From a phage, in sequence record PZ445429.1: a stretch of 64,000 nt of DNA; one strand, written 5' to 3'. Under the pieces are notes generated by a model. That model had not been told where the DNA came from, made no database searches, and saw only the letters and a program-made list of their open reading frames with translations. Both the position numbers and the translations under genes were made by a program. This document shows positions 41,735-51,027 of this stretch, one piece after another; position 1 is the first letter of the stretch, and every line of letters starts with the position of its first letter.

Positions 41735-41828
41735 GGAAGATTAACCCTAAAGGTAAGGGAGCTGTTTGCTAAACAGCCAGTAACTGTGGATACACGGTGT
41801 GCCAGTTCGAATCTGGCATCTTCCTCCA
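41735..41828 (+). tRNA. tRNA-Ser (GCT), type II
   Basis: Acceptor GGAAGAT/ATCTTCC, T-arm GCCAG-TTCGAAT-CTGGC, loop TTGCTAA, long variable arm, CCA. Confidence 0.75.
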
Positions 41829-41833
41829 AATTT

Positions 41834-41911
41834 GGTTCTCAAGCTCATTTGGTATGAGCCGTCGCCTCATAAGCGAAAGGTAGGTAGGTTCGAATCCTCC
41901 GGGAGCCACCA
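41834..41911 (+). tRNA. tRNA with CAT anticodon (Met or Ile2)
   Basis: Acceptor GGTTCTC/GGGAGCC, D-stem GCTC/GAGC, loop CTCATAA, CCA. Confidence 0.65.
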
Positions 41912-41928
41912 ATTAATTAGGAGACTAT

Positions 41929-42114
41929 ATGTCTAGATTCTACGAAATGAAGAAAGCATTAGAAGAATGTCGGTGTAAGGACTGTCATGGTGGTGGTAGG
42001 CAGGATGATGCAGAACCTGGGGATATTTTCTGTAGAGAATGGGAATGTCCTACATGTAAAGGTACTGGTATCAACCCTGAATATGCAATTTGTCTAGACA
42101 TTGAGCGAGGCTAA
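41929..42114 (+). CDS. small zinc-ribbon protein
   Basis: 61 aa; CRCKDCHGG...CPTCKG. Confidence 0.45.
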   Translation: MSRFYEMKKALEECRCKDCHGGGRQDDAEPGDIFCREWECPTCKGTGINPEYAICLDIERG

Positions 42115-42454
42115 GATGGATATTTTTACTACTCCGGCAATAAACCTTTTAGGTGTTGGCTTGTTCCAAGCTACGGTGTATCGTACTGATGATTCTACTG
42201 ATGTGGTAACGTTCATCGTACCTGAGTTCTTCCTAGAAAAGTTCTTTGAAGAGTTTGAGCAGTTCCGTGAAGAACACAATGCTCATTCCGATATGGAAGA
42301 TCTAGCAGCTATGTTCCCTGTGGTTTACGGCTATATCTTTGAAGGTAATGGCCTAGATCTTAATAAATCTGAACTCGTTGAACTTAACTGGGGCATCAAT
42401 TTTGAAGTTGGCTCTCCATTTCCTCGATATTTCCAGGGTTTAGAGATTCGATAA
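42101..42454 (+). CDS. hypothetical protein
   Basis: 117-aa ORF; stop 8 nt before a tRNA. Confidence 0.5.
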   Translation: MSEAKMDIFTTPAINLLGVGLFQATVYRTDDSTDVVTFIVPEFFLEKFFEEFEQFREEHNAHSDMEDLAAMFPVVYGYIFEGNGLDLNKSELVELNWGINFEVGSPFPRYFQGLEIR

Positions 42455-42462
42455 GATTACAT

Positions 42463-42539
42463 GGGGGTGTAATCGAATTGGCATAGGTACTGGACTTAAA
42501 ATTCAGGTTTTGTGGGTTCGAATCCCACCACCCCTACCA
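42463..42539 (+). tRNA. tRNA with TAA anticodon (Leu-type) but class-I short variable arm
   Basis: Acceptor GGGGGTG/CACCCCT, T-arm GTGGG-TTCGAAT-CCCAC, loop CTTAAAA, 5-nt variable region, A73, CCA. Confidence 0.6.
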
Positions 42540-42690
42540 AATTAAGGAAATAAAATGAAAGCTAGTAAGAAAGCACTACGTAAATTTATGTACTGTCGTT
42601 TTCATAGCATCAAGACTTCAACTAATGGTACGACTTATGATCGCTATGATCCTAAGTTTGGCTTACATTCTAAATAACTGGAGAAAACAA

Positions 42691-42897
42691 ATGGCTAATC
42701 CTGAAATTACGGCACAGCGCTTTATGCTAAAAGGTATTATTGCTGAAGCAGGCGTGACACAAGAAGTGGAAGATTTCCATAAGCAGTTCCTAAATATTCT
42801 CACTCAAGCCAAAGAGCTAGGAGAGAAAGAACATGGCGCGGCTATTATGGCAATCACATTGGTTGGGCTTGATCTGGCAGAAGAATCAGGAGTTTAA
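42691..42897 (+). CDS. hypothetical small protein
   Basis: ATG 42691 preceded by GGAGAAAAC. Confidence 0.45.
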   Translation: MANPEITAQRFMLKGIIAEAGVTQEVEDFHKQFLNILTQAKELGEKEHGAAIMAITLVGLDLAEESGV

Positions 42898-42927
42898 CTC
42901 CTCCAAGCAGAAATTTTAAAAATGTAC

Positions 42928-42957
42928 TTGCCTTTTGCTTTAAATTTCTGGTATAAT
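42928..42957 (+). promoter_or_regulatory. N25-type early promoter
   Basis: TTGCCT, 18 bp, TATAAT then TATAAATTGATGAAGGAG. Confidence 0.6.
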
Positions 42958-42987
42958 AGTTATATAAATTGATGAAGGAGTTAACGA

Positions 42988-43263
42988 ATGCAAAATCGTG
43001 TTATAGCAACTGGTATTGAAAGTGCAATCTGTAAATCCTGGGAAGGCTGGGAAGGTGAGATTGAATGGCTTTATTTCTACGATGTAGAACTTCTGCCGGA
43101 AGTTAAAGCTAAATGTGTTGAAGCTGGCATGGCTCCAGATGCAAAAGCTGATATTGATATTTCAATGTCTGAACTTAAAGGTCGTGTAATTACTGTTAGT
43201 GATGAGGGCGAAGAAGTTTTCGAACTTCCATTCTCCTTAACTGTCACTCCTAAGTTCGATTAA
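42988..43263 (+). CDS. hypothetical protein
   Basis: 91-aa ORF, promoter plus RBS GAAGGAG. Confidence 0.5.
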   Translation: MQNRVIATGIESAICKSWEGWEGEIEWLYFYDVELLPEVKAKCVEAGMAPDAKADIDISMSELKGRVITVSDEGEEVFELPFSLTVTPKFD

Positions 43264-43299
43264 CTAATACAGCACTTAGCAAGTTCTTTAAAATTTGAC

Positions 43300-43328
43300 T
43301 TGCTCAGTGCCTTAAAACTTGATATAAT
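43300..43328 (+). promoter_or_regulatory. promoter driving tRNA-Tyr/Glu/Trp/Phe cluster
   Basis: TTGCTC, 17 bp, TATAAT; ~120-nt leader before first tRNA. Confidence 0.6.
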
Positions 43329-43453
43329 AGTTATCTAATTTGGAAAACATATCTGAATGAGAAGTAACTAAGCGAGTTGCTTTTAGGGGTAAAGTCAGGA
43401 TTTCCTGAAATATTCCACTTTGAGTTTAACCGACTTACTTTTCATTCAAATAT

Positions 43454-43534
43454 GGGGGATTGGCTCAGTGGCGACGGCGCCTGGCTGTAGACCGGGTATA
43501 TCACGCGGAGGTTCGAGTCCTCCATCCCCCACCA
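43454..43534 (+). tRNA. tRNA-Tyr (GTA)
   Basis: Acceptor GGGGGAT/ATCCCCC, T-arm GGAGG-TTCGAGT-CCTCC, loop CTGTAGA, 10-nt variable arm, CCA. Confidence 0.7.
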
Positions 43535-43542
43535 AAATTAAT

Positions 43543-43617
43543 GCACCTATCGTCTAATGGTTAGGACATCAGGATTTCAATCTGAGAATCGGAGTTCAAT
43601 TCTCCGTGGGTGTGCCA
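43543..43617 (+). tRNA. tRNA-Glu (TTC)
   Basis: Acceptor GCACCTA/TGGGTGT, D-stem GTCT/GGAC, loop ATTTCAA, T-loop TTCAATT, CCA. Confidence 0.7.
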
Positions 43618-43626
43618 ATTAATAAT

Positions 43627-43697
43627 TGGGGTACGCATAGGTTGCTAGTGGGCCTCCAAAACCCATGAAAAGGTTTCGAATACCTTTACCCCTGCCA
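43627..43697 (+). tRNA. tRNA-Trp-like (CCA), irregular D-arm
   Basis: T-arm AAGGT-TTCGAAT-ACCTT, 3' TACCCCT-G-CCA, loop CTCCAAA; short, U1-U72 mismatch; may be degenerate. Confidence 0.45.
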
Positions 43698-43703
43698 ATA
43701 TTT

Positions 43704-43778
43704 GCACCTTTAGCTGAGATGGATTAGCGCTTGCCTGAAGAGCTTGAGAGGTTGGATCGTTACCAACGGGGTGCACCA
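43704..43778 (+). tRNA. tRNA-Phe-like (GAA)
   Basis: Acceptor GCACCTT/GGGGTGC, D-stem GCTG/TAGC, loop CTGAAGA; two U-U mismatches in anticodon stem, non-canonical T-loop ATCGTTA. Confidence 0.5.
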
Positions 43779-43795
43779 ATTTGAAGGAGATGCTG

Positions 43796-44068
43796 ATGCA
43801 TCCTGAAAACTTCTTTATTTACTGTGCGGATAAGTCATTAAAACGCAGAATTAATAAAGTCTATCATTATCGTGCCAGTCAACAGCCTTATGTTTATGCT
43901 TTTGACGGAGATCACATCCCACTAGAACAATTGGCATGTGATTACATGGTATTGAAGAACTTTGACGAGACAAAGATCTCAAGCGTTCATAATCGACAGA
44001 ACCCGTTAACGTGGAAATATAAGAAGAAAAAGAAAGGCATCATATTTCTGAAAAATGTAGTTGCTTAA
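43796..44068 (+). CDS. hypothetical protein
   Basis: ATG 43796 six nt after AGGAG. Confidence 0.45.
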   Translation: MHPENFFIYCADKSLKRRINKVYHYRASQQPYVYAFDGDHIPLEQLACDYMVLKNFDETKISSVHNRQNPLTWKYKKKKKGIIFLKNVVA

Positions 44069-44089
44069 CCACTTAAAGTTCTGTATAAT
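44061..44089 (+). promoter_or_regulatory. N25-type early promoter
   Basis: TTGCTT (inside preceding ORF 3' end), 17 bp, TATAAT. Confidence 0.6.
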
Positions 44090-44118
44090 TATTACATAAG
44101 TTGAACTGGAGAAGCAAC

Positions 44119-44343
44119 ATGACAGAACAAGAATTGAAAGAACGTAAGCTGGTAATGCTTCGCTTACTAAACATTTTCTCTGGTATGGATGGTGGTATTG
44201 ACTTCATTCAACTACGCACTTTTGTAGAAGAAGCAGAAGGCGAGGCTATCACTAGGATTCTTAAACATATGGGTTTGTTACTAGATGCTGCTAATGTGGC
44301 TACTCAATATAAACTCAAAGATTTACCAGAGCGTGTTAAATGA
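44119..44343 (+). CDS. hypothetical protein
   Basis: ATG 44119 after RBS GGAGAAG. Confidence 0.5.
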   Translation: MTEQELKERKLVMLRLLNIFSGMDGGIDFIQLRTFVEEAEGEAITRILKHMGLLLDAANVATQYKLKDLPERVK

Positions 44344-44531
44344 AAATGTTAGTTAAATTTAAGTGTTGTGGTTCTGAACATATTTTCACTCGTTATAGAG
44401 AGTTTAAGATGTGTGAGTGTGGTAAGTCAGGCTATGATGCTGGAGATGGCTTTTATGCTAGATCTTTAGGACATTCTAAAGATCTAGAGTTTACTAATCT
44501 CGAAAAGCAAGATAAATCGACCGTTGGCTGA
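44340..44531 (+). CDS. small Cys-rich zinc-ribbon-like protein
   Basis: 63 aa, KCCGSEH...CECG; 3' end overlaps tRNA start by 14 nt. Confidence 0.45.
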   Translation: MKMLVKFKCCGSEHIFTRYREFKMCECGKSGYDAGDGFYARSLGHSKDLEFTNLEKQDKSTVG

Positions 44532-44593
44532 ATGGCTTAGGCGGAGGCCTGCAAAACCTCCTTATGTGAGTTCGAATCTCATGCGGTCGTCCA
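44518..44593 (+). tRNA. tRNA-Cys (GCA)
   Basis: Acceptor CGACCGT/GCGGTCG, T-loop TTCGAAT, loop CTGCAAA, CCA. Confidence 0.65.
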
Positions 44594-44599
44594 AATTTA

Positions 44600-44685
44600 G
44601 GGCCGTTGGCTGAATGGTTTAAGCGCCGGACTGTTAATCCGTATCCGCAAGGATAAAGTAGGTTCGACTCCTACACGGCCCGCCA
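44600..44685 (+). tRNA. tRNA-Asn-type (GTT) with unusually long variable region
   Basis: Acceptor GGGCCGT/ACGGCCC, anticodon arm CCGGA-CTGTTAA-TCCGT, 15-nt variable region with GCAA-loop hairpin, G73, CCA. Confidence 0.6.
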
Positions 44686-44712
44686 ATTTCATTAACAACT
44701 GAGGAAATAGAT

Positions 44713-44898
44713 ATGACAACTCGTGCAATTGCTCGACTAGAAGCTGATCGTGATAATCTGATTAATAATATTAAGGTTCGTGGTAATATTATTAAGGCTC
44801 TGAAAGCTGAACTTCTTGAAGAACTTCAAGGTCAAGTAGAGCGTCGTGAAGCTCTAAAAGAGGTTGAGGAAGCTATCGAAAAACTCAAGGCTGAATAA
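44713..44898 (+). CDS. hypothetical coiled-coil protein
   Basis: 61-aa ORF with RBS GAGGAAATAG. Confidence 0.45.
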   Translation: MTTRAIARLEADRDNLINNIKVRGNIIKALKAELLEELQGQVERREALKEVEEAIEKLKAE

Positions 44899-44901
44899 AT
44901 T

Positions 44902-45483
44902 ATGCACGGAATATCCTTACCCATTCCAGGGTTTGAGGAGTACTTAGTAAGTTTGGATGGGTTAGTATTTAGTATCAAATCAAACAAAATACTAACCCCA
45001 ATAACCAGTAATTACGGATACTTATCTATACGTCTCCATAAAAATGGTCAACAGAGAAATACCGGTGTACATAGGATTTTAGCATGTGCATTTAAGAAAT
45101 TACCAAGTCTAGACTCTGAACTAGAAGTTGACCATATTAACACAGACATTACTTATTGGGGTCTTAATAACTTACAAGTGCTCACAAAAGAGCAGCATCT
45201 AGAAAAGACTTTAAAAGACAAAGGATTTAGTAAACTAAACCATGATAATTGTTGTAAGGATTGTGGTAAAGCTATTTCTTTAAAAGCTGAAAAATGTCAG
45301 GAGTGCTCTTCACATAAACCAAAAGATATCTCTATAACTAAAGAAATAATCGAGGTTACAGTAAGAGAGCTAGGCTGGTCAGGTGCAGGGAGAAAGTTAA
45401 GTTATTCAGATAATGGGTTGCGTAAAAGATACACTTCTTTAGGAGGCAATCCTAAAGAACTTAAAAAGTTAAAGGTACTATAG
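44902..45483 (+). CDS. HNH homing endonuclease inside the tRNA cluster
   Basis: 193 aa; HNH core EVDHINTD...NNLQVLTKEQH plus zinc ribbon CCKDCG...CQEC; stop overlaps tRNA start. Confidence 0.7.
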   Translation: MHGISLPIPGFEEYLVSLDGLVFSIKSNKILTPITSNYGYLSIRLHKNGQQRNTGVHRILACAFKKLPSLDSELEVDHINTDITYWGLNNLQVLTKEQHLEKTLKDKGFSKLNHDNCCKDCGKAISLKAEKCQECSSHKPKDISITKEIIEVTVRELGWSGAGRKLSYSDNGLRKRYTSLGGNPKELKKLKVL

Positions 45484-45554: not shown

Positions 45555-45631
45555 ACATCCATAGCTCAATTGGTTAGAGCTACCGCCTCTTAAGCGGTAG
45601 GTTCTAGGTTCAAGTCCTAGTGGGTGTACCA
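45555..45631 (+). tRNA. tRNA-Lys (CTT)
   Basis: Acceptor ACATCCA/TGGGTGT, D-stem GCTC/GAGC, anticodon arm ACCGC-CTCTTAA-GCGGT, CCA. Confidence 0.8.
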
Positions 45632-45844
45632 AACATCAGAGCAGCGTGATGTACTGCAAAGACCCAAAGTCCGGGGTGGACTTCTTGATTCAAAGGAGCA
45701 GGCATTAATTATCATTCTAGCGTGGTGGAGAGGGGACACCAGCTTGCCGAGGGTAGAAGCTCGTTCGATTCGAGTGAAAGAATGGTTCTCGTAAATCCGC
45801 ACAAGTGATAGTAGGTTCAAGTCCTACCTAGATTGACTCATTAT
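45632..45844 (+). ncRNA. ORF-free tRNA-like region (candidate stable RNA or degenerate tRNA genes)
   Basis: 213 nt between two tRNAs; two T-arm-like hairpins (GCTCG-TTCGATT-CGAGT near 45757; GTAGG-TTCAAGT-CCTAC at 45811-45827) without a matching 5' acceptor strand. Confidence 0.3.
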
Positions 45845-45915
45845 GCGTTCGTAGTTAAAAGGTATAATTTTTGGTTGCCAACCAGAAGTTGAGGGTTCGA
45901 TTCCCTCCGACCGCA
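45845..45915 (+). tRNA. tRNA-Gly (GCC), no encoded CCA
   Basis: Acceptor GCGTTCG/CGACCGC (one mismatch), loop TTGCCAA, T-arm GAGGG-TTCGATT-CCCTC; 3' end ...A-CAA. Confidence 0.55.
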
Positions 45916-46173
45916 CAAAATCTTTGTAGGTCGCGTCACTTATAGTGGGACTACAGGGTAAACAAGGCGATGAGTTTCCGGCCGGTTCTAGTCGCTGAAA
46001 ATCCTCCCGACCAGGTAGGTGTAGGTAAACGAAAGTTTACTTATTGAGTAGGTTCCGATAGATCGGCGGGTCTATTCTGGCGTTTAAGAGAAGTCTCGCA
46101 AACTTCTTTGTCAGCCGTGGGGCTTGAACCCTCCAGGTGGCCTACGCAATAAGTAAATTTATTAAAAATTCAT
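45916..46173 (+). ncRNA. ORF-free structured region (candidate small RNA)
   Basis: ~255 nt, GC-richer than surroundings, hairpins such as GTAAAC-GAAA-GTTTAC; no ORF of 60 aa or more. Confidence 0.25.
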
Positions 46174-46202
46174 TTGCTATTTTGCTTAATTCTCTGTATA
46201 AT
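46174..46202 (+). promoter_or_regulatory. N25-type early promoter
   Basis: AAAAATTCATTTGCTAT...TATAAT. Confidence 0.7.
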
Positions 46203-46441: not shown

Positions 46442-46518
46442 CTCCGATTAGCTCAATTGGCTAGAGTACACCGTTTGGGGCGGTGGGGTTGAAGGTTCGA
46501 GTCCTTCATTGGAGACCA
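46442..46518 (+). tRNA. tRNA-Pro (TGG)
   Basis: Acceptor CTCCGAT/ATTGGAG, anticodon arm CACCG-TTTGGGG-CGGTG, T-arm GAAGG-TTCGAGT-CCTTC, CCA. Confidence 0.8.
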
Positions 46519-46524: not shown

Positions 46525-46602
46525 TGCGGGTTAGATCTTTGGTAGAGATCGCTAGTCTCATAAGCTAGAAAGAGGTAGGTTCGATTCCTACACCCGCTTC
46601 CA
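46525..46602 (+). tRNA. tRNA with CAT anticodon (Met or Ile2), U1-U72 mismatch
   Basis: Acceptor TGCGGGT/ACCCGCT, D-stem GATC/GATC, anticodon arm CTAGT-CTCATAA-GCTAG, CCA. Confidence 0.65.
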
Positions 46603-46623: not shown

Positions 46624-46788
46624 ATGAAATTATTTCGTTTAAAAGTAAGTGATCTACGTTCTAGCAAAGATCGTAAGAAGTATCCACTAGCCCATTACGG
46701 TAAAGATGAAAACGAAGTGATGGCGGAATTTGGTATTAATCATCCTTACTTAAAAGTCTACTCTATTAAAGAAGTCTATGCTAATTAA
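46624..46788 (+). CDS. small hypothetical protein (54 aa)
   Basis: Below track cutoff; RBS AAGGA; overlaps next gene start. Confidence 0.35.
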   Translation: MKLFRLKVSDLRSSKDRKKYPLAHYGKDENEVMAEFGINHPYLKVYSIKEVYAN

Positions 46789-47251
46789 TAAAGTTTTAGC
46801 TGCCTTAAACCTTCCTGATAACTTCATTATAGATGATAAGCTCATAAGAGCTTATATGAGCAAATATAACGAAATTTCGGGTAAAGAAGGTAAGTTAAAA
46901 ACTTCAGAGTTTAGATTCTGTTATCGAATGGCAGCCTTAAATCTCTTAAAGTATAAAAGGGAGCATAAAATACCTATAACGGAAGGTTTTGTATATGTAA
47001 TTGGTAATCCAGCATGGCCAGGCATGTATAAAATAGGTATGACTATAGATGTGAATGAGAGGTTAGCAAGTTATCAAACTTATTCACCTAATAGAGACTA
47101 CAAGCTATACCATTTCAGATTTTCGTCGGATAAAAGACGTACAGAGAAAGAATTACATAATCTTCTTAAAGATTATAGAGTATCTGGAGAATGGTTTGAA
47201 GTACCTGTACTAGATGCTTTTAAATTATTAGTAGAAAAATTGGATTGCTAG
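46778..47251 (+). CDS. T5orf172/GIY-YIG-like domain protein (putative endonuclease)
   Basis: 157 aa; GFVYVIGNPAWPGMYKIGMTIDVNERL; stop overlaps tRNA. Confidence 0.65.
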   Translation: MLINKVLAALNLPDNFIIDDKLIRAYMSKYNEISGKEGKLKTSEFRFCYRMAALNLLKYKREHKIPITEGFVYVIGNPAWPGMYKIGMTIDVNERLASYQTYSPNRDYKLYHFRFSSDKRRTEKELHNLLKDYRVSGEWFEVPVLDAFKLLVEKLDC

Positions 47252-47319
47252 CTCAACTGGATAAGAGTAGCGGACCTTTAATCCGTCAGTTCTGGGTTCG
47301 AATCCCAGGCAATCCACCA
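47242..47319 (+). tRNA. tRNA-Lys (TTT)
   Basis: Acceptor GGATTGC/GCAATCC, loop CCTTTAA, T-arm CTGGG-TTCGAAT-CCCAG, CCA; 5' end overlaps upstream stop codon. Confidence 0.7.
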
Positions 47320-47323
47320 AATT

Positions 47324-47397
47324 GCTCGGTTAGTTTAATGGGAGAACCCCGTCTTTACACGGCGGTTGCGATAGTTCGATTCTATCACCGAGTACCA
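47324..47397 (+). tRNA. tRNA-Val (TAC)
   Basis: Acceptor GCTCGGT/ACCGAGT, anticodon arm CCGTC-TTTACAC-GGCGG, CCA. Confidence 0.8.
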
Positions 47398-47422
47398 ATT
47401 AACTCAAAATAAGGAATTGCAA

Positions 47423-47776
47423 ATGCAATTATCAAGCAAGGTTCAAGGCTATTTCGGGCATGTAACAATGGAGTTCGCTATCTCTAAAGGTTGGGACTTC
47501 GAACAAGATCTAGCTGAGTTCTACAAAGATATTGATCTGAACGTACCATACATGGGACTCTCCACTGGTCAAGAGATCACAGAAGGCGATGTGTTCAAGG
47601 CAAGTCAAGGTGAGGTAACACCTAGTTTTGCCAAGTTCTGGTTAGGTATCACACTGAAAGAAGATGCACCAGAGGATGGTGTGGTTATGCAGAGTATGCA
47701 CTCTGGAAGCTCTGATTACCTTTTCGTTAGTGACGTTAAGGAAATACAAGAAATCGCTAAAAATGTACTTGCTTGA
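47423..47776 (+). CDS. hypothetical protein
   Basis: ATG 47423 six nt after AAGGAA. Confidence 0.5.
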   Translation: MQLSSKVQGYFGHVTMEFAISKGWDFEQDLAEFYKDIDLNVPYMGLSTGQEITEGDVFKASQGEVTPSFAKFWLGITLKEDAPEDGVVMQSMHSGSSDYLFVSDVKEIQEIAKNVLA

Positions 47777-47797
47777 TGCTTAATTTCTTGTTATAAT
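47769..47797 (+). promoter_or_regulatory. N25-type promoter driving a noncoding leader and tRNA-Ala cluster
   Basis: TTGCTT, 17 bp, TATAAT then TATAAATTGATGAGGAG. Confidence 0.7.
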
Positions 47798-48037
47798 ATT
47801 TATATAAATTGATGAGGAGAAATCCTCATCAAAGTTCACTAAGGTATTAGCTCGACCCAGGACTGGCTGCCAAAAAGCACGATCCCTACGACTCGGGAGA
47901 AGTTCTAGATTAGTCCACTAGATTCAGCGGCAACTGAATAGTGTATCGGGTTTGTGAAGAGCGGTTATCCTCTACTGGCTAATGTCTGAGGGTAATACGC
48001 ACACCGAGCTAATAGCCTTAGTAAACTTAAAGATTTT
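47798..48037 (+). ncRNA. promoter-driven 240-nt leader upstream of tRNA-Ala (candidate small RNA or processed spacer)
   Basis: N25-type promoter at 47769-47797, then hairpin TGATGAGGA-GAAAT-CCTCATCA and 220 nt without an ORF. Confidence 0.3.
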
Positions 48038-48111
48038 GGGGATATAGTTTAATGGTAGAACATCTGCTTTGCACGCAGAAGACGAGGGTTCAACTCCCTC
48101 TTTCTCCACCA
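48038..48111 (+). tRNA. tRNA-Ala (TGC)
   Basis: Acceptor GGGGATA with G3-U70, anticodon arm TCTGC-TTTGCAC-GCAGA, CCA. Confidence 0.75.
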
Positions 48112-48117
48112 AAATTC

Positions 48118-48193
48118 GGGGTCATAGGTTATTTGGTTAAACTTACTGCCTTGCAAGCAGTGGAACTCAGTTCAATTCTGAGTGACTCCACCA
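48118..48193 (+). tRNA. tRNA-Ala-like (TGC), second copy with different body
   Basis: Acceptor GGGGTCA/TGACTCC with G3-U70, anticodon arm ACTGC-CTTGCAA-GCAGT, CCA. Confidence 0.6.
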
Positions 48194-48200
48194 AACAAAT

Positions 48201-48281
48201 GGGGATGTGGCGAAATTGGCAGACGCGCTAGATTTAGGTTCTAGTCTTCGGGTGTGGGTTCGAGTCCCTCCATCCCTACCA
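48201..48281 (+). tRNA. tRNA-Leu (TAG), type II
   Basis: Acceptor GGGGATG/CATCCCT, D-arm TGGCGAAATTGGCAGACGCG, anticodon arm CTAGA-TTTAGGT-TCTAG, extended variable arm, CCA. Confidence 0.75.
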
Positions 48282-48455
48282 AACATTGGATTAACTCATG
48301 ATGAAAACTCCTATAACTGATATCTGGTTAGCTGTTAATACATTAACTAAAGAGTATGTGTTTATAGAGTATGGTCAGAGGTATGACCAAAAGATGTATA
48401 ATCTCATACTTCCAGTATCCGCTAATGAAGTTTATGATTTAATCCTGAGATCTAC

Positions 48456-48547
48456 GGAAGAGCAAATCGATAGGTGACGAAAACCGCTTGGAAAGTGGCT
48501 GACTTGTTAAAGCAGGCTTGAGAGTTCGAATCTCTCTTCTTCCGCCA
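48456..48547 (+). tRNA. tRNA-Ser (GGA), type II
   Basis: Acceptor GGAAGAG/TTCTTCC, loop TTGGAAA, ~20-nt variable arm, T-arm GAGAG-TTCGAAT-CTCTC, CCA. Confidence 0.6.
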
Positions 48548-48554
48548 AACAACT

Positions 48555-48644
48555 GGAAGGTAGGACATAGTGGTATGTAACAGGTCTTGAAAACCTGCCC
48601 GCTGTAGCGATATGGTGATGGTTCGACTCCATTACCTTCCTCCA
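48555..48644 (+). tRNA. tRNA-Ser (TGA), type II
   Basis: Acceptor GGAAGGT/ACCTTCC, anticodon arm CAGGT-CTTGAAA-ACCTG, long variable arm with CGC/GCG stem, CCA. Confidence 0.75.
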
Positions 48645-48660
48645 ACTAATAAGGAAAAAT

Positions 48661-48996
48661 ATGAGTAGTTATACTAAAATGTATATTGCAGTACTAGATG
48701 AAGCACCCGATTATATGGTACCAACTCTAGTTGCTCACTCTGTTTTAAACGCTCATATTAAGTTTCAGGATGACCCTAGGTATGGGGATTGGCTTGATAA
48801 TTCTTTTAAGAAAGTAATTCTTAGGGTTAATAAAAAAGAATTTAAAAAGATCATATCTACCCTAGAGTGTTACGTAGGTTTTGAGCGCACTATCTGTAAT
48901 GCAGAACCTAGCTGTTTAGTAGTTATGCCTATGAGTTCTGTTGATATGCCAAATGTTTTAAAATTTGCTAGACTTTGGAAACCTAAAGATGTTTAG
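48661..48996 (+). CDS. hypothetical protein
   Basis: 111-aa ORF with RBS AAGGAAAAAT. Confidence 0.5.
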   Translation: MSSYTKMYIAVLDEAPDYMVPTLVAHSVLNAHIKFQDDPRYGDWLDNSFKKVILRVNKKEFKKIISTLECYVGFERTICNAEPSCLVVMPMSSVDMPNVLKFARLWKPKDV

Positions 48997-49384
48997 CAAC
49001 TAGTATTCTTGAAGTATGCCGGAATCGGTAGACGGGGCTTCCTAAAGGGCGTAAGGGGAACATCCACTCCTCATAAGATACCCGAAAACGAGGCTGAGAT
49101 AAATGGTCTATCTCATGAAGGTTCAAGTCCTTCTGCTTCTTGATATTCAATGGCTCAAAGTGTAACGGTGCTATTTGATGTTCTTAGTAAGACTTTCCCG
49201 ACATGCGTTCGGGAGTAAGCTGCTAAGGCTAGAGTAGAAGAGTTTCGGAGAGCCGCCACAATTGAGTATTACTAGAGAGCATTCGCAAGAAAGAATCAGG
49301 AGAAAGACCTGTGCGCAGAATGACTAACTTTGGTACCTTAGACGGCCAAATGGAGGACTGATCATCCCCTAATAGTATTCAATT
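48997..49384 (+). ncRNA. ORF-free tRNA-like region
   Basis: ~390 nt; tRNA D-arm-like GAATCGGTAGACG at 49022-49034 and T-arm GAAGG-TTCAAGT-CCTTC at 49117-49133 but no canonical cloverleaf. Confidence 0.3.
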
Positions 49385-49461
49385 GTGGCTATATCATAAT
49401 TGGTTAATGATCCTGATTGTGAATCAGGCCTATGTGGATTCGAATTCCACTAGCCACCCCA
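49385..49461 (+). tRNA. tRNA-His (GTG)
   Basis: Acceptor GTGGCTA/TAGCCAC, anticodon arm CCTGA-TTGTGAA-TCAGG, C73, CCA. Confidence 0.8.
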
Positions 49462-49467
49462 AATATT

Positions 49468-49542
49468 GCGTCCTTATTTCAACGGAAAGAATGTAAAGCT
49501 ACGAACTTTACGATCGGGGTTCGATTCCCTGAGGATGCACCA
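49468..49542 (+). tRNA. tRNA-Arg (ACG)
   Basis: Acceptor GCGTCCT/AGGATGC, anticodon arm TAAAG-CTACGAA-CTTTA, CCA. Confidence 0.75.
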
Positions 49543-49566
49543 ATTAACTTAAACAGGAAATAAAAT

Positions 49567-49767
49567 ATGGCTGATTTCTGCAAAGAATGCTCTATTGATA
49601 TGTGGGGAAGAGATACTGGTGATCTTTCTGGTCTGATTACAGAAGCCGAAGTTAAAGAAGGCTATGGTGCCGTTGTAATCTGTGAAGGTTGTGGCATTAT
49701 CCGTGTTGATCATAATGGTAAACGTCTAGAAGAGCCTGATCCAATCGCCACGGTTTCTGTAGAATAA
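49567..49767 (+). CDS. small Cys-rich protein
   Basis: 66 aa; CKEC...CEGCG. Confidence 0.45.
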   Translation: MADFCKECSIDMWGRDTGDLSGLITEAEVKEGYGAVVICEGCGIIRVDHNGKRLEEPDPIATVSVE

Positions 49768-49775
49768 AAAATTAT

Positions 49776-49851
49776 TGGAGTGTAGCTCAACTGGCAGAGC
49801 GACGGTTTCTGACACCGTAGGTTTCTAGTTCGATCCTAGACATTCCAGCCA
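49776..49851 (+). tRNA. tRNA-Gln (CTG)
   Basis: Acceptor TGGAGTG/CATTCCA (U1-A72), anticodon arm ACGGT-TTCTGAC-ACCGT, G73, CCA. Confidence 0.75.
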
Positions 49852-49857
49852 AACAAT

Positions 49858-49935
49858 TGGGGATTAGCTTAGCTTGGCCTAAAGCTTCGGCCTTTGAAGT
49901 CGAGATCATTGGTTCAAATCCAATATCCCCTGCCA
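49858..49935 (+). tRNA. tRNA-Gln (TTG)
   Basis: Acceptor TGGGGAT/ATCCCCT (U1-U72), anticodon arm TCGGC-CTTTGAA-GTCGA, G73, CCA. Confidence 0.7.
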
Positions 49936-49943
49936 AACAATAA

Positions 49944-50019
49944 GCGGTTAAGCACACGGGTTGTGCCGCAGGCCTTCCAAGCCCCGCTGAGTAGGGTTCG
50001 ATTCCCTCTAGCCGCTCCA
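49944..50019 (+). tRNA. tRNA-Gly-like (TCC), weak anticodon stem
   Basis: Acceptor GCGGTTA/TAGCCGC, loop CTTCCAA, T-loop TTCGATT, U73, CCA; only 3 bp in anticodon stem. Confidence 0.5.
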
Positions 50020-50036
50020 ACTTTAAGGAAACATTT

Positions 50037-50258
50037 ATGCACGTTTTTGAGTTTCGTGATAAAAGTAACAATAAACGAGTTATTGTTATTGGAGAAACAT
50101 ACCTAGCATACGAACAAACTGACGGCTCTGTTATCTTGAATGATGAGAAAGCAAATTTTAGCTTTTATCCAGAAGAACCTTATGAAGAGTTTCGTACTAA
50201 GTTTCTTTTACCAGACTGGCTAGCAGTAGCCGAGCAACTAGAATCCGAAGATGGCTGA
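50037..50258 (+). CDS. hypothetical protein
   Basis: 73-aa ORF with RBS AAGGAAAC. Confidence 0.45.
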   Translation: MHVFEFRDKSNNKRVIVIGETYLAYEQTDGSVILNDEKANFSFYPEEPYEEFRTKFLLPDWLAVAEQLESEDG

Positions 50259-50415
50259 TAACCTGAAACTAAAGGTTGACAAACAAAAGAAACGTGTAGA
50301 GATTGAGCTTGGTGACGAACGCCTAGCACTATCCTTCGAGTTTCTTCAGCAGTTGGCGATGACAGTAATGTCTGATAAGTCTCCTGTATTTGAAAAAGAA
50401 ATCCCGTTGAAATGA
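50251..50415 (+). CDS. small hypothetical protein (54 aa)
   Basis: Below track cutoff; overlaps previous stop; weak. Confidence 0.3.
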   Translation: MADNLKLKVDKQKKRVEIELGDERLALSFEFLQQLAMTVMSDKSPVFEKEIPLK

Positions 50416-50425
50416 CGGGTTTATT

Positions 50426-50500
50426 GCTCCTAAAGCATTGCTGGCGATGCAGTTGCCTTGTAAGCATCTGAACTGGGTTCGACTCCTGGTGGGAGCACCA
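50426..50500 (+). tRNA. tRNA-Thr (TGT)
   Basis: Acceptor GCTCCTA/TGGGAGC, D-stem GCAT/ATGC, loop CTTGTAA, CCA. Confidence 0.7.
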
Positions 50501-50515
50501 AATTTAAAAATTCAT

Positions 50516-50544
50516 TTGCCTTCTCTCTTATTTCTTGTTATAAT
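50516..50544 (+). promoter_or_regulatory. N25-type early promoter
   Basis: TTGCCT, 17 bp, TATAAT then TATAAATTAATGAGAGGG. Confidence 0.7.
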
Positions 50545-50574
50545 ATTTATATAAATTAATGAGAGGGAAACCAA

Positions 50575-50868
50575 ATGAAACGTTATCTTTCTGTCGTATT
50601 CCAAACGGGTGGTCAACGCTATACTTACGAATTTCCTGAGTCTTGGAAAATTAAAGAAGGTGATCAAGTTGTTGTATTAACACCTCGTGAAGGCTTCAAA
50701 GTAGTAACGGTTAAACAAGTCTTTCCAAAAGATCACGAACCATCTAAGTCTATTCAGTACAAGATGATTCACGGTCTGGTACGAAAAGTACCTAGAACAG
50801 AAGTCGAAGTAGATAAAACTGGGGAAGCTAAATACCAGTATACTTCTTACTTGGATGAAATGATGTAA
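50575..50868 (+). CDS. hypothetical protein
   Basis: 97-aa ORF, promoter plus RBS GAGAGGGAAACC. Confidence 0.5.
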   Translation: MKRYLSVVFQTGGQRYTYEFPESWKIKEGDQVVVLTPREGFKVVTVKQVFPKDHEPSKSIQYKMIHGLVRKVPRTEVEVDKTGEAKYQYTSYLDEMM

Positions 50869-50869
50869 T

Positions 50870-50945
50870 GCTCTGATAGTTCAACAGGTTAGAACAGGCG
50901 ACCGATAATCGTCAAATCTTGGTTCGATCCCAAGTCGGAGTACCA
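50870..50945 (+). tRNA. tRNA-Ile (GAT)
   Basis: Acceptor GCTCTGA/TCGGAGT, anticodon arm GGCGA-CCGATAA-TCGTC, T-arm CTTGG-TTCGATC-CCAAG, CCA. Confidence 0.7.
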
Positions 50946-50951
50946 AATTAT

Positions 50952-51027
50952 AGTTAGTTGGCAGAGTGGTTATGCACCTCCTTCATACGGAGCGACTACA
51001 GTGGTTCAACTCCACTACTAACTACCA
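50952..51027 (+). tRNA. tRNA with CAT anticodon (third copy)
   Basis: Acceptor AGTTAGT/ACTAACT, loop TTCATAC, T-arm AGTGG-TTCAACT-CCACT, CCA. Confidence 0.55.

What the first reader, a model, noticed from the sequence alone, without database searches (positions are those of the whole stretch)
41735..51027. About 30 tRNA genes with possible redundancy and atypical acceptor ends
Hand folding finds tRNAs for most amino acids. There are three CAT-anticodon genes (41834, 46525, 50952), two Ala-TGC genes with different bodies (48038, 48118; both G3-U70), three Ser, two Gln, two Lys and two Gly. Three genes start with T opposite T at position 72 (43627, 46525, 49858). Several have weak stems or non-canonical T-loops (43627, 43704, 49944), suggesting a mix of functional and decaying genes.
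Basis: seen in the sequence. Interest (0 to 1): 0.45.

Follow-up and report, generated by a model that had tools for sequence, protein, structure and literature searches.

The report
T5-type phage tRNA gene cluster
This is the well-known tRNA-rich region of a T5-like (Epseptimavirus) phage: 29 tRNA genes for all 20 amino acids, whose odd-looking members are conserved, so the finding is real but ordinary.

Summary
ARAGORN at default settings finds 26 tRNA genes on the + strand in 41735-51027. That makes 29 genes covering all 20 amino acids.

The window is about 94% identical to annotated Epseptimavirus genomes. It is syntenic with the curated phage T5 tRNA region, which already annotates the same Trp, Phe and Gly(UCC) genes and names the three CAT genes Ile2, fMet and Met.

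"Redundancy" is mostly apparent. Only the two Ala-TGC genes share an anticodon.

"Decay" is not supported for the genes that could be tested:
- Gly-TCC has compensatory changes at 12 of 22 pairs across phages of four host genera, and its T5 orthologue is annotated as a working suppressor.
- Phe has compensatory changes at 8 of 21 pairs.
- The 71-nt Trp gene is at least 95.8% identical in 115 phage genomes.

Published T5 and SP15 work shows such tRNAs replace host tRNAs cut by PARIS and retron Eco7.

Side observations: different tRNA alleles occupy the same slot in different phages, some next to endonuclease ORFs; Lys-UUU and Ile-GAU have C33; several T5 stable-RNA homologues are present.

Verdict: already known, low interest.

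The parts
41692..41720 (+). T5-type early promoter (TTGCTT-N17-TATAAT, A-rich upstream) ahead of Ser-GCT and CAT-a
   Evidence: Regex scan. The T5 record annotates promoter P15b at the syntenic position, overlapping the Ser3(GCU) gene, and P15a further upstream.
41735..41828 (+). tRNA-Ser (GCT), class II, encoded CCA
   Evidence: ARAGORN; Rfam 48.4 bits. Only 66% identical to T5 Ser3(GCU), so a different allele in the same slot.
41834..41911 (+). CAT-anticodon tRNA; orthologue of the gene T5 annotates as tRNA-Ile2(CAU)
   Evidence: ARAGORN; Rfam 40.0 bits. 86% identical to T5 tRNAI2. Lysidine modification not tested.
42463..42539 (+). tRNA-Leu (TAA), 77 nt with a short variable region; absent from T5
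   Evidence: ARAGORN; Rfam 57.4 bits. 100% identical in SUT_E1620 and 1-19.
42928..42957 (+). T5-type early promoter
43300..43328 (+). T5-type early promoter ahead of Tyr-Glu-Trp-Phe
   Evidence: T5 promoter P14a is at the homologous place.
43454..43534 (+). tRNA-Tyr (GTA)
   Evidence: ARAGORN; Rfam 49.9 bits. 65% identical to T5 Tyr, so a different allele. T5 and SP15 tRNA-Tyr counter retron Eco7 (PMC11555353).
43543..43617 (+). tRNA-Glu (TTC), G1.U72
   Evidence: ARAGORN; Rfam 55.6 bits.
43627..43697 (+). tRNA-Trp (CCA), 71 nt, U1.U72, 3-bp D stem, C31.A39 mismatch, G73, CCA
   Evidence: Found only with ARAGORN -ps80; no Rfam hit at E<=5. The unconstrained MFE fold is a cloverleaf. 96% identical to the gene T5 annotates as tRNAW(CCA). 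At least 95.8% identical in 115 phage records.
43704..43778 (+). tRNA-Phe (GAA), two U.U mismatches in the anticodon stem, T-loop ATCGTTA (A54/U58)
   Evidence: Rfam 33.4 bits; ARAGORN -ps80. 91% identical to T5 tRNAF. 8 of 21 pairs compensatory.
44061..44089 (+). T5-type early promoter
44518..44593 (+). tRNA-Cys (GCA)
   Evidence: ARAGORN; Rfam 40.7 bits. 91% identical to T5.
44600..44685 (+). tRNA-Asn (GTT), 86 nt with a long variable arm
   Evidence: ARAGORN; Rfam 58.5 bits; sequence read. T5 Asn was not among its two closest T5 genes.
44902..45483 (+). HNH homing-endonuclease-like ORF (NUMOD4 + HNH_3), overlapping the start of tRNA-Asp
   Evidence: Pfam. Present at the same place in SUT_E1620, absent at that place from 1-19, T5 and EC100. 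Found in 54 phage records.
45474..45548 (+). tRNA-Asp (GTC)
   Evidence: ARAGORN; Rfam 63.1 bits. This allele is at least 95% identical in 67 records.
45555..45631 (+). tRNA-Lys (CTT); absent from T5
   Evidence: ARAGORN; Rfam 69.6 bits.
45713..45837 (+). Homologue of T5 RNA2 ('tRNA-like stable RNA with unknown functions')
   Evidence: 88% identical to T5 rna2.
45845..45916 (+). tRNA-Gly (GCC); the only gene of the 29 without an encoded CCA (tail ACAA); absent from T5
   Evidence: ARAGORN; Rfam 61.1 bits; tail. BF23 also carries a Gly-GCC gene (PMC10644984).
46048..46148 (+). Homologue of T5 RNAIV (stable RNA, function unknown)
   Evidence: 94% identical.
46174..46202 (+). T5-type early promoter
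   Evidence: T5 promoter P13a is at the homologous place.
46442..46518 (+). tRNA-Pro (TGG)
   Evidence: ARAGORN; Rfam 55.4 bits. 100% identical to T5.
46525..46602 (+). CAT-anticodon tRNA; orthologue of T5 initiator tRNA-fMet; U1.U72 mismatch, A11-U24
   Evidence: ARAGORN; Rfam 47.9 bits. 97% identical to T5 tRNAfM.
46778..47251 (+). T5orf172/MUG113-domain ORF (annotated as a putative GIY-YIG nuclease in one relative), overlapping the start of tRNA-Lys(TTT)
   Evidence: Pfam. Syntenic in SUT_E1620 only among the seven loci. Found in 65 phage records; called 'putative GIY-YIG nuclease family protein' in JLBYU43.
47242..47319 (+). tRNA-Lys (TTT) with C33 (loop CCUUUAA); a different allele from T5's
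   Evidence: ARAGORN; Rfam 59.9 bits; loop. At least 99% identical in 76 records, with none between 90 and 95%.
47324..47397 (+). tRNA-Val (TAC)
   Evidence: ARAGORN; Rfam 57.8 bits. 96% identical to T5.
47769..47797 (+). T5-type early promoter
   Evidence: T5 promoter P13b is at the homologous place.
47845..47957 (+). Homologue of T5 RNA2H (stable RNA, function unknown)
   Evidence: 95.6% identical over 113 nt.
48038..48111 (+). tRNA-Ala (TGC) copy 1, G3.U70, U6.U67
   Evidence: ARAGORN; Rfam 72.3 bits; pairs.
48118..48193 (+). tRNA-Ala (TGC) copy 2, G3.U70; 51 of 76 positions identical to copy 1
   Evidence: ARAGORN; Rfam 59.6 bits.
48201..48281 (+). tRNA-Leu (TAG)
   Evidence: ARAGORN; Rfam 53.5 bits.
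48456..48547 (+). tRNA-Ser (GGA), class II
   Evidence: ARAGORN default. Rfam only below gathering score (tRNA-Sec model, 26.5 bits). 72% identical to T5 Ser2.
48555..48644 (+). tRNA-Ser (TGA), class II
   Evidence: ARAGORN; Rfam 29.1 bits. 89% identical to T5 Ser1.
49008..49151 (+). Homologue of T5 RNA1 ('tRNA-like stable RNA'); acceptor-, D- and T-arm-like helices with a large insert
   Evidence: 80.7% identical to T5 rna1. ARAGORN -i reports it as an intron-containing tRNA. Fold.
49152..49258 (+). Homologue of T5 RNAI (stable RNA); closing helix followed by GCCA at the 3' end
   Evidence: 90.7% identical; fold.
49385..49461 (+). tRNA-His (GTG), C73, T at position -1
   Evidence: ARAGORN; Rfam 59.9 bits. 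99% identical to T5. The -1 base was read.
49468..49542 (+). tRNA-Arg (ACG); absent from T5
   Evidence: ARAGORN; Rfam 53.4 bits.
49776..49851 (+). tRNA-Gln (CTG), U1-A72
   Evidence: ARAGORN; Rfam 60.0 bits. T5's Gln2(CUG), flagged a pseudogene there, was not among its two closest T5 genes.
49858..49935 (+). tRNA-Gln (TTG), U1.U72
   Evidence: ARAGORN; Rfam 54.5 bits. 100% identical to T5 Gln1, which T5 annotates as an effective suppressor.
49944..50019 (+). tRNA-Gly (TCC), U73; no nucleotide 9; bulged pyrimidine between 42 and 43; U49.C65
   Evidence: ARAGORN -ps80. Rfam tRNA-Sec model 28.5 bits, below gathering score. 97% identical to T5 Gly1. 12 of 22 pairs compensatory.
50426..50500 (+). 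tRNA-Thr (TGT)
   Evidence: ARAGORN; Rfam 43.5 bits. 93% identical to T5.
50516..50544 (+). T5-type early promoter
   Evidence: T5 promoter P11 is at the homologous place.
50870..50945 (+). tRNA-Ile (GAT) with C33 (loop CCGAUAA), G1.U72
   Evidence: ARAGORN; Rfam 57.0 bits; loop. C33 is conserved in Sugarlandvirus with compensatory stem changes.
50952..51027 (+). CAT-anticodon tRNA; orthologue of T5 elongator tRNA-Met
   Evidence: ARAGORN; Rfam 49.5 bits. 99% identical to T5 tRNAM.
   Evidence: ARAGORN; Rfam 50.5 bits. 99% identical to T5 tRNAR.
35369..35442 (+). tRNA-like element that ARAGORN calls 'SeC(tca)'; lies in the homologue of T5 RNAX; 6-nt loop; no CCA

Best explanation
This is the tRNA-rich region of a T5-like siphovirus (Demerecviridae, Markadamsvirinae, genus Epseptimavirus).

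Anatomy. About 9.3 kb of the early region carries 29 tRNA genes on one strand, mostly in pairs 4-9 nt apart. All but one have an encoded CCA end. They are interspersed with small ORFs, two homing-endonuclease-like ORFs and several stable-RNA genes. At least seven strong T5-type sigma-70 promoter matches lie in the region and would drive them (inferred from consensus and from T5's annotated promoters).

Decoding capacity. Together with Arg-TCT at 36478, the set includes an initiator, Ile2 and elongator Met, and at least one tRNA for every amino acid. By standard wobble rules, allowing U34 to read all four codons of a family box, it could read every sense codon except CGG. CGG is 2% of Arg codons in this window.

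Proposed mechanism. The precursors are processed by host RNase P and 3' exonucleases, charged by host synthetases, and used to keep phage translation going when host tRNAs are limiting or destroyed. Direct experiments exist for relatives only. T5 tRNA-Lys(UUU), Thr(UGU) and Asn(GUU) neutralise the PARIS AriB tRNase. T5 and SP15 tRNA-Tyr neutralise retron Eco7 PtuAB. A second, compatible role is matching supply to the AT-rich codon usage of a 40% GC phage in a roughly 51% GC host.

Shown here: the genes, their homology and synteny with T5, and conservation and covariation of the atypical members.

Inferred: expression, processing, charging and the anti-defence role in this particular phage.
For: Gene calls.

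Source and synteny: 580 phage records match the region. The best is Escherichia phage SUT_E1620 (Epseptimavirus) at 94% identity over 92% of the query, with the same tRNA annotations. The gene order matches the curated T5 record AY543070, including Trp(CCA), Phe(GAA), Gly1(UCC), fMet, Ile2, Met and the stable RNAs.

Promoters: seven TTGC-N17/18-TATAAT sites with shared flanks lie inside the region, at places where T5 annotates promoters.

Constraint on the atypical genes:
- Gly-TCC has 12 of 22 pairs compensatory.
- Phe has 8 of 21 pairs compensatory.
- Trp is at least 95.8% identical in 115 records, against 74-87% background identity to T5.

Codon coverage: CGG is 11 of 626 Arg codons in 51 ORFs.

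Function in relatives: PMC11464382, PMC12409363, PMC11555353, PMC10644984.
Against: Nothing in this window shows expression, processing or aminoacylation.

The T5 record notes that anticodon-swapped Trp, Phe and several other tRNAs did not become amber suppressors. This is expected where the anticodon is an identity element, but it leaves their function unproven.

The region is dispensable in the laboratory. T5 deletion mutants and the natural variant mar004NP2 lack most of it.

This phage's Lys(UUU) allele differs from the T5 allele that was shown to resist AriB. It keeps U39 and C40 of the AriB motif, so resistance cannot be assumed.

Rfam gives no hit for the Trp gene.
Confidence: 0.93

Rival explanations
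1. Codon-usage compensation only. The tRNAs exist to supply codons that an AT-rich phage uses more than its GC-richer host. They have no role against host defences.
For: The window is about 40% GC. Third codon positions are 65% A or T. 12 of the 29 anticodons start with T, which favours A-ending codons. This is the classical view cited in PMC10644984.
Against: The set is nearly complete rather than restricted to codons rare in the host. It includes tRNAs for codons that E. coli decodes well, such as Arg-ACG for CGT, which is 59% of Arg codons here. Experiments on T5 and SP15 show defence neutralisation by individual tRNAs. The two roles are compatible, so the word 'only' is the weak part.
Confidence: 0.15
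2. One reading: the cluster mixes working genes with decaying pseudogenes. The candidates for decay are Trp 43627, Phe 43704 and Gly-TCC 49944.
For: All three fall below ARAGORN's default threshold, and two fall below Rfam's gathering score. They have mismatched stems. T5 notes that Trp and Phe did not become suppressors, and it flags Gln2(CUG) as a pseudogene. The window's copies carry copy-specific weakenings: A28.C42 in Gly, and U7.G66 in Phe.
Against: Covariation supports Gly-TCC and Phe across genera. The mismatches themselves are conserved: U.U twice in seven phages, and the bulged pyrimidine plus U49.C65 in eight. Trp is at least 95.8% identical in 115 records against about 85% background. 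T5 annotates Gly1(UCC) as an effective suppressor. All three keep an encoded CCA and fold into a cloverleaf at minimum free energy.
Confidence: 0.1
3. Some of the atypical tRNAs and tRNA-like RNAs are not decoders. Instead they act as decoys or processing punctuation, for example substrates that soak up tRNA-targeting nucleases, or RNase P sites that release neighbouring mRNAs and tRNAs.
For: Several T5 'stable RNAs with unknown functions', including the tRNA-like RNA1 and RNA2, are conserved here. The element at 35369 keeps tRNA-like T and acceptor arms but has a 6-nt loop and no CCA. The endonuclease ORFs overlap tRNA 5' ends. [quoted passage not shown]
Against: There is no direct evidence. 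Gly-TCC, Phe and Trp keep standard 7-nt anticodon loops with U33, a purine at 37, and CCA ends, as expected of decoders.
Confidence: 0.12

Closest known systems
Phage T5 tRNA gene region (GenBank AY543070, about 28.0-37.3 kb plus tRNA-Arg at 40.8 kb)
   Same: The gene order and orientation relative to flanking genes are the same. There are orthologues at 86-100% identity for Ile2, Trp, Phe, Cys, Pro, fMet, Val, Ser1, His, Gln1, Gly1, Thr, Met and Arg-TCT. The stable RNAs RNA1, RNAI, RNA2, RNAIV, RNA2H and part of RNAX are shared. Both have T5-type promoters and HNH endonuclease ORFs abutting tRNA genes.
   Different: This phage adds Leu-TAA, Lys-CTT, Gly-GCC, Arg-ACG and a second Ala-TGC. At the slots for Ser-GCT, Tyr, Glu, Asn, Asp, Lys-TTT, Ala, Leu-TAG, Ser-GGA, Gln-CTG and Ile-GAT it carries genes that are at most about 74% identical to the T5 gene with the same anticodon. 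Its endonuclease ORFs sit at different places. No homologue of RNAIII or RNA3 was detected.
Tequintavirus and Epseptimavirus tRNA-rich regions (SUT_E1620, SP15, EPS7, bobsandoy and others); the 'TRR' of Azam et al. 2024
   Same: 92-95% nucleotide identity over 81-92% of the region among the top hits. The tRNA genes are annotated in most of these records. Loss of the roughly 8-kb TRR in T5 and SP15 makes the phages sensitive to retron Eco7 (PMC11555353).
   Different: Only in detail. This window combines T5-type alleles (Pro, Gln-TTG, Gly-TCC) with Epseptimavirus-type alleles. SUT_E1620 and 1-19 carry other alleles at those three slots.
Phage T4 tRNA gene cluster with the SegB homing endonuclease
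   Same: A phage tRNA cluster with an embedded homing-endonuclease gene. SegB drives preferential inheritance of the tRNA region in mixed infection (PMC2330249).
   Different: By general knowledge, T4 has only 8 tRNAs plus two stable RNAs and a GIY-YIG SegB. There is no sequence relationship to this cluster, and none was tested here.
Large tRNA arrays of other lytic phages, for example cluster C1 mycobacteriophages
   Same: Near-complete tRNA sets. The anticodon-loop differences from host tRNAs are interpreted as resistance to anticodon nucleases (PMC10264068).
   Different: Unrelated phages and hosts. In those cases the argument rests on computational comparison, whereas for T5 there are experiments.

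Membership tests
T5-like (Markadamsvirinae) tRNA-rich region | Nucleotide homology and synteny with the T5 and EPS7 tRNA region | tested here: met
   94% identity over 92% of the query to SUT_E1620. 580 phage records match. The region is collinear with T5 at 74-95% identity in blocks.
T5-like (Markadamsvirinae) tRNA-rich region | 20 or more same-strand tRNA genes interspersed with small ORFs and homing-endonuclease genes | tested here: met
   29 tRNA genes on the + strand. Small + strand ORFs lie between them. NUMOD4/HNH and T5orf172 ORFs are present.
T5-like (Markadamsvirinae) tRNA-rich region | T5 early promoters driving the tRNA and ORF groups | tested here: met
   Seven consensus sites with conserved flanks inside the region, at places matching promoters annotated in T5. 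Their activity was not tested.
T5-like (Markadamsvirinae) tRNA-rich region | Genes for the T5 stable RNAs (RNA1, RNAI, RNA2, RNAIV, RNA2H) | tested here: met
   81-96% identity to the T5 features. RNAIII and RNA3 were not detected.
T5-like (Markadamsvirinae) tRNA-rich region | tRNAs expressed, processed and charged during infection | not testable with these tools
   Needs tRNA-seq or charging assays. Shown only for T5 and SP15 relatives in the literature.
Canonical tRNA (Rfam RF00005) - gene 43627 (Trp) | Score at or above the gathering threshold of 29 bits | tested here: not met
   No RF00005 hit even at E<=5. Found only with ARAGORN -ps80. It still folds as a cloverleaf and T5 annotates it as tRNAW.
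Canonical tRNA (Rfam RF00005) - gene 43704 (Phe) | Score at or above the gathering threshold of 29 bits | tested here: met
   33.4 bits.
Canonical tRNA (Rfam RF00005) - gene 49944 (Gly-TCC) | Score at or above the gathering threshold, or covariation support for a cloverleaf | tested here: inconclusive
   The only Rfam hit is the tRNA-Sec model at 28.5 bits, below its threshold of 47. Covariation, however, supports all four arms at 12 of 22 pairs.
Bacterial initiator tRNA-fMet - gene 46525 | CAU anticodon and an unpaired 1-72 position | tested here: met
   CAT anticodon and U1.U72. E. coli has C1.A72 (general knowledge).
Bacterial initiator tRNA-fMet - gene 46525 | A11-U24 in the D stem | tested here: met
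   The D stem reads GATC/GATC, which gives A11-U24 (sequence).
Bacterial initiator tRNA-fMet - gene 46525 | Three consecutive G-C pairs at 29-31:39-41 in the anticodon stem | tested here: not met
   The stem is CUAGU/GCUAG. Only 30-40 is G-C; 29-41 is A-U and 31-39 is U.G. It is called the initiator from the T5 annotation, so the family claim rests on that record and on the other features.
tRNA-Ile2 (lysidine-modified CAU) - gene 41834 | C34 converted to lysidine by TilS, and charging by IleRS | not testable with these tools
   Assigned from 86% identity to the gene T5 annotates as tRNAI2. BLAST against 5,426 E. coli genomes gave no match.
tRNA-Ala - genes 48038 and 48118 | G3.U70 wobble pair, the AlaRS identity element | tested here: met
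   Both have G3.T70.
tRNA-Gly - gene 49944 | E. coli GlyRS identity set: U73, G1-C72, C2-G71, G3-C70, C35, C36 (general knowledge, not re-checked in a paper here) | tested here: met
   All six are present in the sequence.
Selenocysteine tRNA - ARAGORN call at 35369 | About 90 nt or more, 8/5 acceptor/T arrangement, long variable arm, 7-nt UCA loop, CCA-compatible 3' end | tested here: not met
   It is 74 nt with no long arm. ARAGORN draws an 8-row acceptor stem with two mismatches and a 5-bp T stem; the other features fail. Comparative data favour a 6-nt loop. The 'anticodon' differs between phages (TCA here, ACT in T5). The 3' tail is AAAG, not CCA.

The most novel reading that the evidence does not exclude
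The unusual features may be products of an arms race with host tRNA-cleaving defences. These features are C33 in Lys-UUU and Ile-GAU, conserved U.U mismatches or a bulge in the anticodon stems of Phe and Gly-UCC, the A54/U58 T-loop, the long-arm Asn and the short-arm Leu. In addition, T5-like phages appear to exchange whole tRNA genes as discrete alleles, some hitch-hiking with adjacent homing-endonuclease-like ORFs (HNH next to this Asp allele, T5orf172 next to the C33 Lys allele). Under this reading the region works as a shuffled library of nuclease-resistant tRNAs.
Probability: 0.3. Interest if true: 0.5.

Novelty: already known. Interest (0 to 1): 0.15.

Why it matters
As a discovery it matters little. 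The cluster is annotated in hundreds of GenBank records and has been studied in T5 for decades.

It remains biologically relevant. Recent work shows that individual T5-type tRNAs decide whether these phages escape PARIS, retron Eco7 and PrrC-like defences. The exact allele content of a therapeutic or biocontrol T5-like phage may therefore affect its host range.

Two practical points follow from this check. First, default tRNA finders miss conserved members: Trp, Phe and Gly-UCC are unannotated under the match in many of the listed records. Second, tRNA content in this group varies by replacement of whole genes rather than by gradual drift.

Tried and rejected
(1) ARAGORN's 'tRNA-SeC(tca)' at 35369 as a selenocysteine or opal-suppressor tRNA. 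Rejected. It is 74 nt with no long arm and no CCA. Homologues in six phages share a 6-nt loop (GTAACT) and give a different 'anticodon'.

(2) ARAGORN -i 'tRNA-Phe(aaa) with intron' at 49010-49141. Rejected as a tRNA gene. It is the homologue of T5 RNA1, a tRNA-like stable RNA.

(3) The other relaxed-threshold ARAGORN calls (-ps80, -ps70). Rejected. They lie inside ORFs, on the - strand, or overlap real tRNAs.

(4) An alternative register for the Phe anticodon arm. The MFE fold gives loop GCCUGAA, which would read CUG. Rejected because the Aeromonas phage homologue has a perfect 5-bp stem in the GAA register.

(5) Rfam E-value search of the ORF-free stretches. Nothing credible; only sub-threshold plastid and tRNA-mirror hits.

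(6) Thermodynamic z-scores for the stable-RNA homologues and the weak tRNAs. Not significant (-1.5 to +0.2) and therefore uninformative.

(7) BLAST of the 41834 CAT tRNA against 5,426 E. coli genomes, to decide Ile2 versus Met by similarity. No match.

(8) The generic promoter scan found no more sites than shuffled sequence (32 found, 38.8 expected). The T5-specific extended consensus was needed.

Because the tRNA set is nearly complete, it cannot separate the hypotheses. Only coverage was computed.

Full report
**What is there.** ARAGORN with default settings reports 28 tRNA genes in the window, all on the + strand. Arg-TCT at 36478 and a 'SeC(tca)' call at 35369 lie upstream of it. Rfam's tRNA model at gathering score also gives 28 hits. 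It adds 43704 (33.4 bits) and loses 48456. A more permissive Rfam run shows 48456 and 49943-50016 only as sub-threshold matches to the tRNA-Sec model, and shows nothing for 43627. That threshold also yields many obvious false calls. These three therefore rest on context: same strand, 6-9 nt from neighbouring tRNAs, encoded CCA, and homology (see below). The count is 29 in the interval. With Arg-TCT, the set covers all 20 amino acids.

All are correct.
- There are three CAT genes.
- The two Ala-TGC genes share only 51 of 76 positions, and both have G3.U70.
- There are three Ser, two Gln, two Lys and two Gly genes.
- U1 lies opposite U72 in 43627, 46525 and 49858.
- The stems of 43627, 43704 and 49944 are weak. 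Only 43704 has a non-canonical T-loop, ATCGTTA.

Further anatomy: 28 of the 29 genes encode CCA. The exception is Gly-GCC, with the tail ACAA. Most genes are in pairs separated by 4-9 nt.

**Where it comes from.** The 9.4-kb region matches 580 phage records. The best is Escherichia phage SUT_E1620 (Demerecviridae, Markadamsvirinae, Epseptimavirus) at 94% identity over 92% of the query. Many Salmonella and Escherichia T5-like phages follow, with the tRNAs already annotated in most of them.

The curated T5 record AY543070 lists the same genes in the same order:
- Ser3(GCU), Ile2(CAU), Tyr, Glu, Trp(CCA), Phe(GAA), Cys, Asn, Asp
- the stable RNAs RNA2 and RNAIV
- Pro, fMet, Lys(UUU), Val, RNA2H, Ala, Leu1, Ser2, Ser1
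- RNA1, RNAI, RNAIII
- His, Gln2 (flagged as a pseudogene), Gln1, Gly1(UCC), Thr, Ile1, Met
- further upstream, Arg and RNAX.

The window's three CAT genes are 86%, 97% and 99% identical to T5's Ile2, initiator fMet and elongator Met. They are the usual trio, not redundant copies. The window also holds homologues of T5 RNA1 (49008-49151), RNAI (49152-49258), RNA2 (45713-45837), RNAIV (46048-46148), RNA2H (47845-47957) and part of RNAX (35328-35548). Seven T5-type promoters (TTGC-N17/18-TATAAT with conserved A-rich upstream and ATATTTATAAATT-like downstream flanks) lie within the region.

**Are the weak genes decaying?** For Gly-TCC, eight homologues were aligned by structure. They come from Escherichia (window, T5, AKFV33), Klebsiella (GlastoCabaret, PWKp9S, and DP of the Vequintavirinae), Aeromonas and Vibrio phages.
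- 12 of 22 base pairs show compensatory double changes.
- The apparent defects are invariant family traits: a single nucleotide between the acceptor and D stems, a bulged pyrimidine between positions 42 and 43, and U49.C65.
- The only non-pair at a variable position is A28.C42 in the window's own copy, where T5 has A-U.
- The T5 orthologue is 97% identical. It is annotated as becoming an 'effective amber suppressor' when its anticodon is replaced, so it is processed, charged and used.
- The sequence carries U73, G1-C72, C2-G71, G3-C70, C35 and C36, the E. coli GlyRS identity set as I recall it.

For Phe, 8 of 21 pairs show compensatory changes. The two U.U mismatches at 28-42 and 29-41 are identical in all seven enterobacterial T5-like phages examined, whereas the Aeromonas phage homologue has Watson-Crick pairs there. 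The odd T-loop ATCGTTA (A54 with U58 in place of T54 with A58) is shared with Klebsiella and Aeromonas phages, while T5 has TTCAATT.

For Trp there is no distant homologue, so there is no covariation to count. However, all 115 matching phage records are at least 95.8% identical, against 74-87% identity between this window and T5 in the surrounding blocks.

All three fold into cloverleaves without constraints. 'Decay' is therefore not supported for Gly-TCC and Phe. For Trp it is unlikely but unproven.

**How it most likely works.** Published experiments on close relatives give the mechanism.
- T5 Lys(UUU), Thr(UGU) and Asn(GUU) together are necessary and sufficient to neutralise PARIS (PMC12409363).
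- The roughly 8-kb 'tRNA-rich region' of T5 and SP15 supplies a strongly expressed tRNA-Tyr that defeats retron Eco7 (PMC11555353).
- T5-like phages are described as encoding an almost complete tRNA set (PMC10644984).

By inference, this phage uses host RNA polymerase at its early promoters, then host RNase P and 3' trimming, then host synthetases. This builds a parallel tRNA pool that keeps translation running when host tRNAs are cleaved or run down. It also fits the phage's own AT-rich codon usage: 40% GC, with 65% A or T at third positions. If U34 can read all four codons of a family box, the set reads every sense codon but CGG, which is 11 of 626 Arg codons in 51 ORFs of the window.

Whether this phage's own alleles resist particular nucleases cannot be said. 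Its Lys(UUU) reads U36-A-A-U39-C40-C41. It thus keeps U39 (T5 has A39) but has C41, and the A41-to-C change was reported to inhibit AriB substantially.

**Things beyond the finding.**

(a) Mosaic alleles. For the same anticodon in the same slot, this phage is 96-100% identical to T5 for Pro, Gln-TTG, Gly-TCC, His, Met, fMet, Trp and Val. It is at most about 74% identical for Ser-GCT, Tyr, Glu, Asn, Asp, Lys-TTT, Ala, Leu-TAG, Ser-GGA, Gln-CTG and Ile-GAT. Its nearest genomic relatives, SUT_E1620 and 1-19, carry other alleles of Pro, Gln-TTG and Gly-TCC. Identity distributions are discontinuous. For Lys-TTT, 76 records are at least 99% identical, 9 are at 95-99%, none are at 90-95%, and 208 are below 90%.

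(b) Endonuclease neighbours. A NUMOD4/HNH ORF (44902-45483) overlaps the start of tRNA-Asp. A T5orf172/MUG113 ORF (46778-47251) overlaps the start of tRNA-Lys(TTT). Both ORFs and both alleles are present together in SUT_E1620. Both are absent from those positions in 1-19, T5 and EC100, which carry other alleles. Record counts are similar: the HNH ORF is in 54 records and the Asp allele at 95% or better is in 67; the T5orf172 ORF is in 65 records and the Lys allele at 95% or better is in 85. This suggests linkage to mobile endonuclease genes. T5's own F-Tfl endonuclease ORFs also lie in its tRNA cluster. The linkage is not proven here.

(c) C33. Lys-TTT and Ile-GAT have C instead of the near-universal U at position 33. 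The Ile C33 is kept in a Klebsiella Sugarlandvirus, with compensatory changes in the adjoining stem.

(d) The 'SeC' call at 35369. This is a tRNA-like element inside the RNAX homologue. Its T arm and a hairpin with a 6-nt loop show covariation, and it has no CCA.

**Verdict.** The object is the well-known T5-type tRNA-rich region, so it is already known and of low interest. The side observations are modest leads, not discoveries.

Noticed in passing
window 35369-35442 (within 35328-35548): ARAGORN's 'tRNA-SeC(tca)' is a tRNA-like element conserved in T5, EC100, mar004NP2, SUT_E1620, 1-19 and a Klebsiella Sugarlandvirus. It lies inside the homologue of T5 'RNAX' (stable RNA, function unknown). 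The T arm and a hairpin covary. The hairpin loop is 6 nt: GTAACT in the six relatives, TTCACC here. There is no CCA end. It is not a decoding tRNA.
   Followed up: partly
window 45713-45837, 46048-46148, 47845-47957, 49008-49151, 49152-49258: These are homologues of the T5 stable RNAs RNA2, RNAIV, RNA2H, RNA1 and RNAI, all annotated 'unknown functions' in T5. Identity to T5 is 81-96%. RNA1 has acceptor-, D- and T-arm-like helices with a large insert. RNAI ends in a closing helix followed by GCCA. There are no Rfam matches, and folding z-scores are unremarkable.
   Followed up: partly
window 45632-45711: An 80-nt ORF-free stretch just after tRNA-Lys(CTT) is 97.5% identical to a stretch in Klebsiella phage GlastoCabaret (Sugarlandvirus), where it sits directly upstream of the Phe tRNA homologue. 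This is much higher than the identity of most tRNAs compared between the two phages. It may be another small RNA, or a recently exchanged segment.
   Followed up: no
window 47242-47319 and 50870-50945: tRNA-Lys(UUU) and tRNA-Ile(GAU) have C at position 33 (loops CCUUUAA and CCGAUAA) instead of the near-universal U33. Both alleles are widespread, at 99% identity or better in 76 and 98 phage records. The Ile C33 is conserved in Sugarlandvirus with compensatory stem changes.
   Followed up: partly
window 44902-45483 and 46778-47251: Two mobile-endonuclease-like ORFs (NUMOD4+HNH, and T5orf172/MUG113) each overlap the 5' end of a tRNA gene (Asp, Lys-UUU). Each co-occurs with a particular tRNA allele in SUT_E1620. 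Phages with other alleles lack the ORF at that position. Record counts for ORF and allele are similar (54 vs 55-67; 65 vs 85).
   Followed up: partly
window 41735-51027 compared with loci L001-L007: tRNA genes in T5-like phages vary by replacement of whole alleles at fixed slots. The identity distributions are discontinuous, for example none between 90 and 95% for Lys-UUU. This window mixes T5-type alleles (Pro, Gln-UUG, Gly-UCC) with Epseptimavirus-type alleles.
   Followed up: partly
window 44600-44685 and 42463-42539: tRNA-Asn(GUU) is 86 nt with a long, stem-forming variable arm like a class II tRNA. Its 5' half resembles the adjacent tRNA-Cys. tRNA-Leu(UAA) is only 77 nt with a 5-nt variable region, like a class I tRNA. 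Both are the opposite of the usual bacterial pattern.
   Followed up: no
window 49384-49385: The tRNA-His gene has T, not G, at position -1, both here and in T5. It keeps C73. The T5 record nevertheless annotates its His tRNA as an effective suppressor after anticodon replacement.
   Followed up: no
window 39491-41276: Just upstream of the tRNA region are ORFs with a cytidylyltransferase-like plus AAA_28 architecture (NadR-like; called ribosylnicotinamide kinase in phage 1-19) and a PnuC-type nicotinamide mononucleotide transporter. Together they form a phage NAD-salvage pair.
   Followed up: no
locus L007 (Escherichia phage vB_Eco_mar004NP2): This natural Tequintavirus (98.7 kb) has only about 8 annotated tRNA genes at this locus, which looks like a large natural deletion of the tRNA-rich region. 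It nevertheless keeps the Phe gene, the fMet gene and the RNAX tRNA-like element.
   Followed up: no
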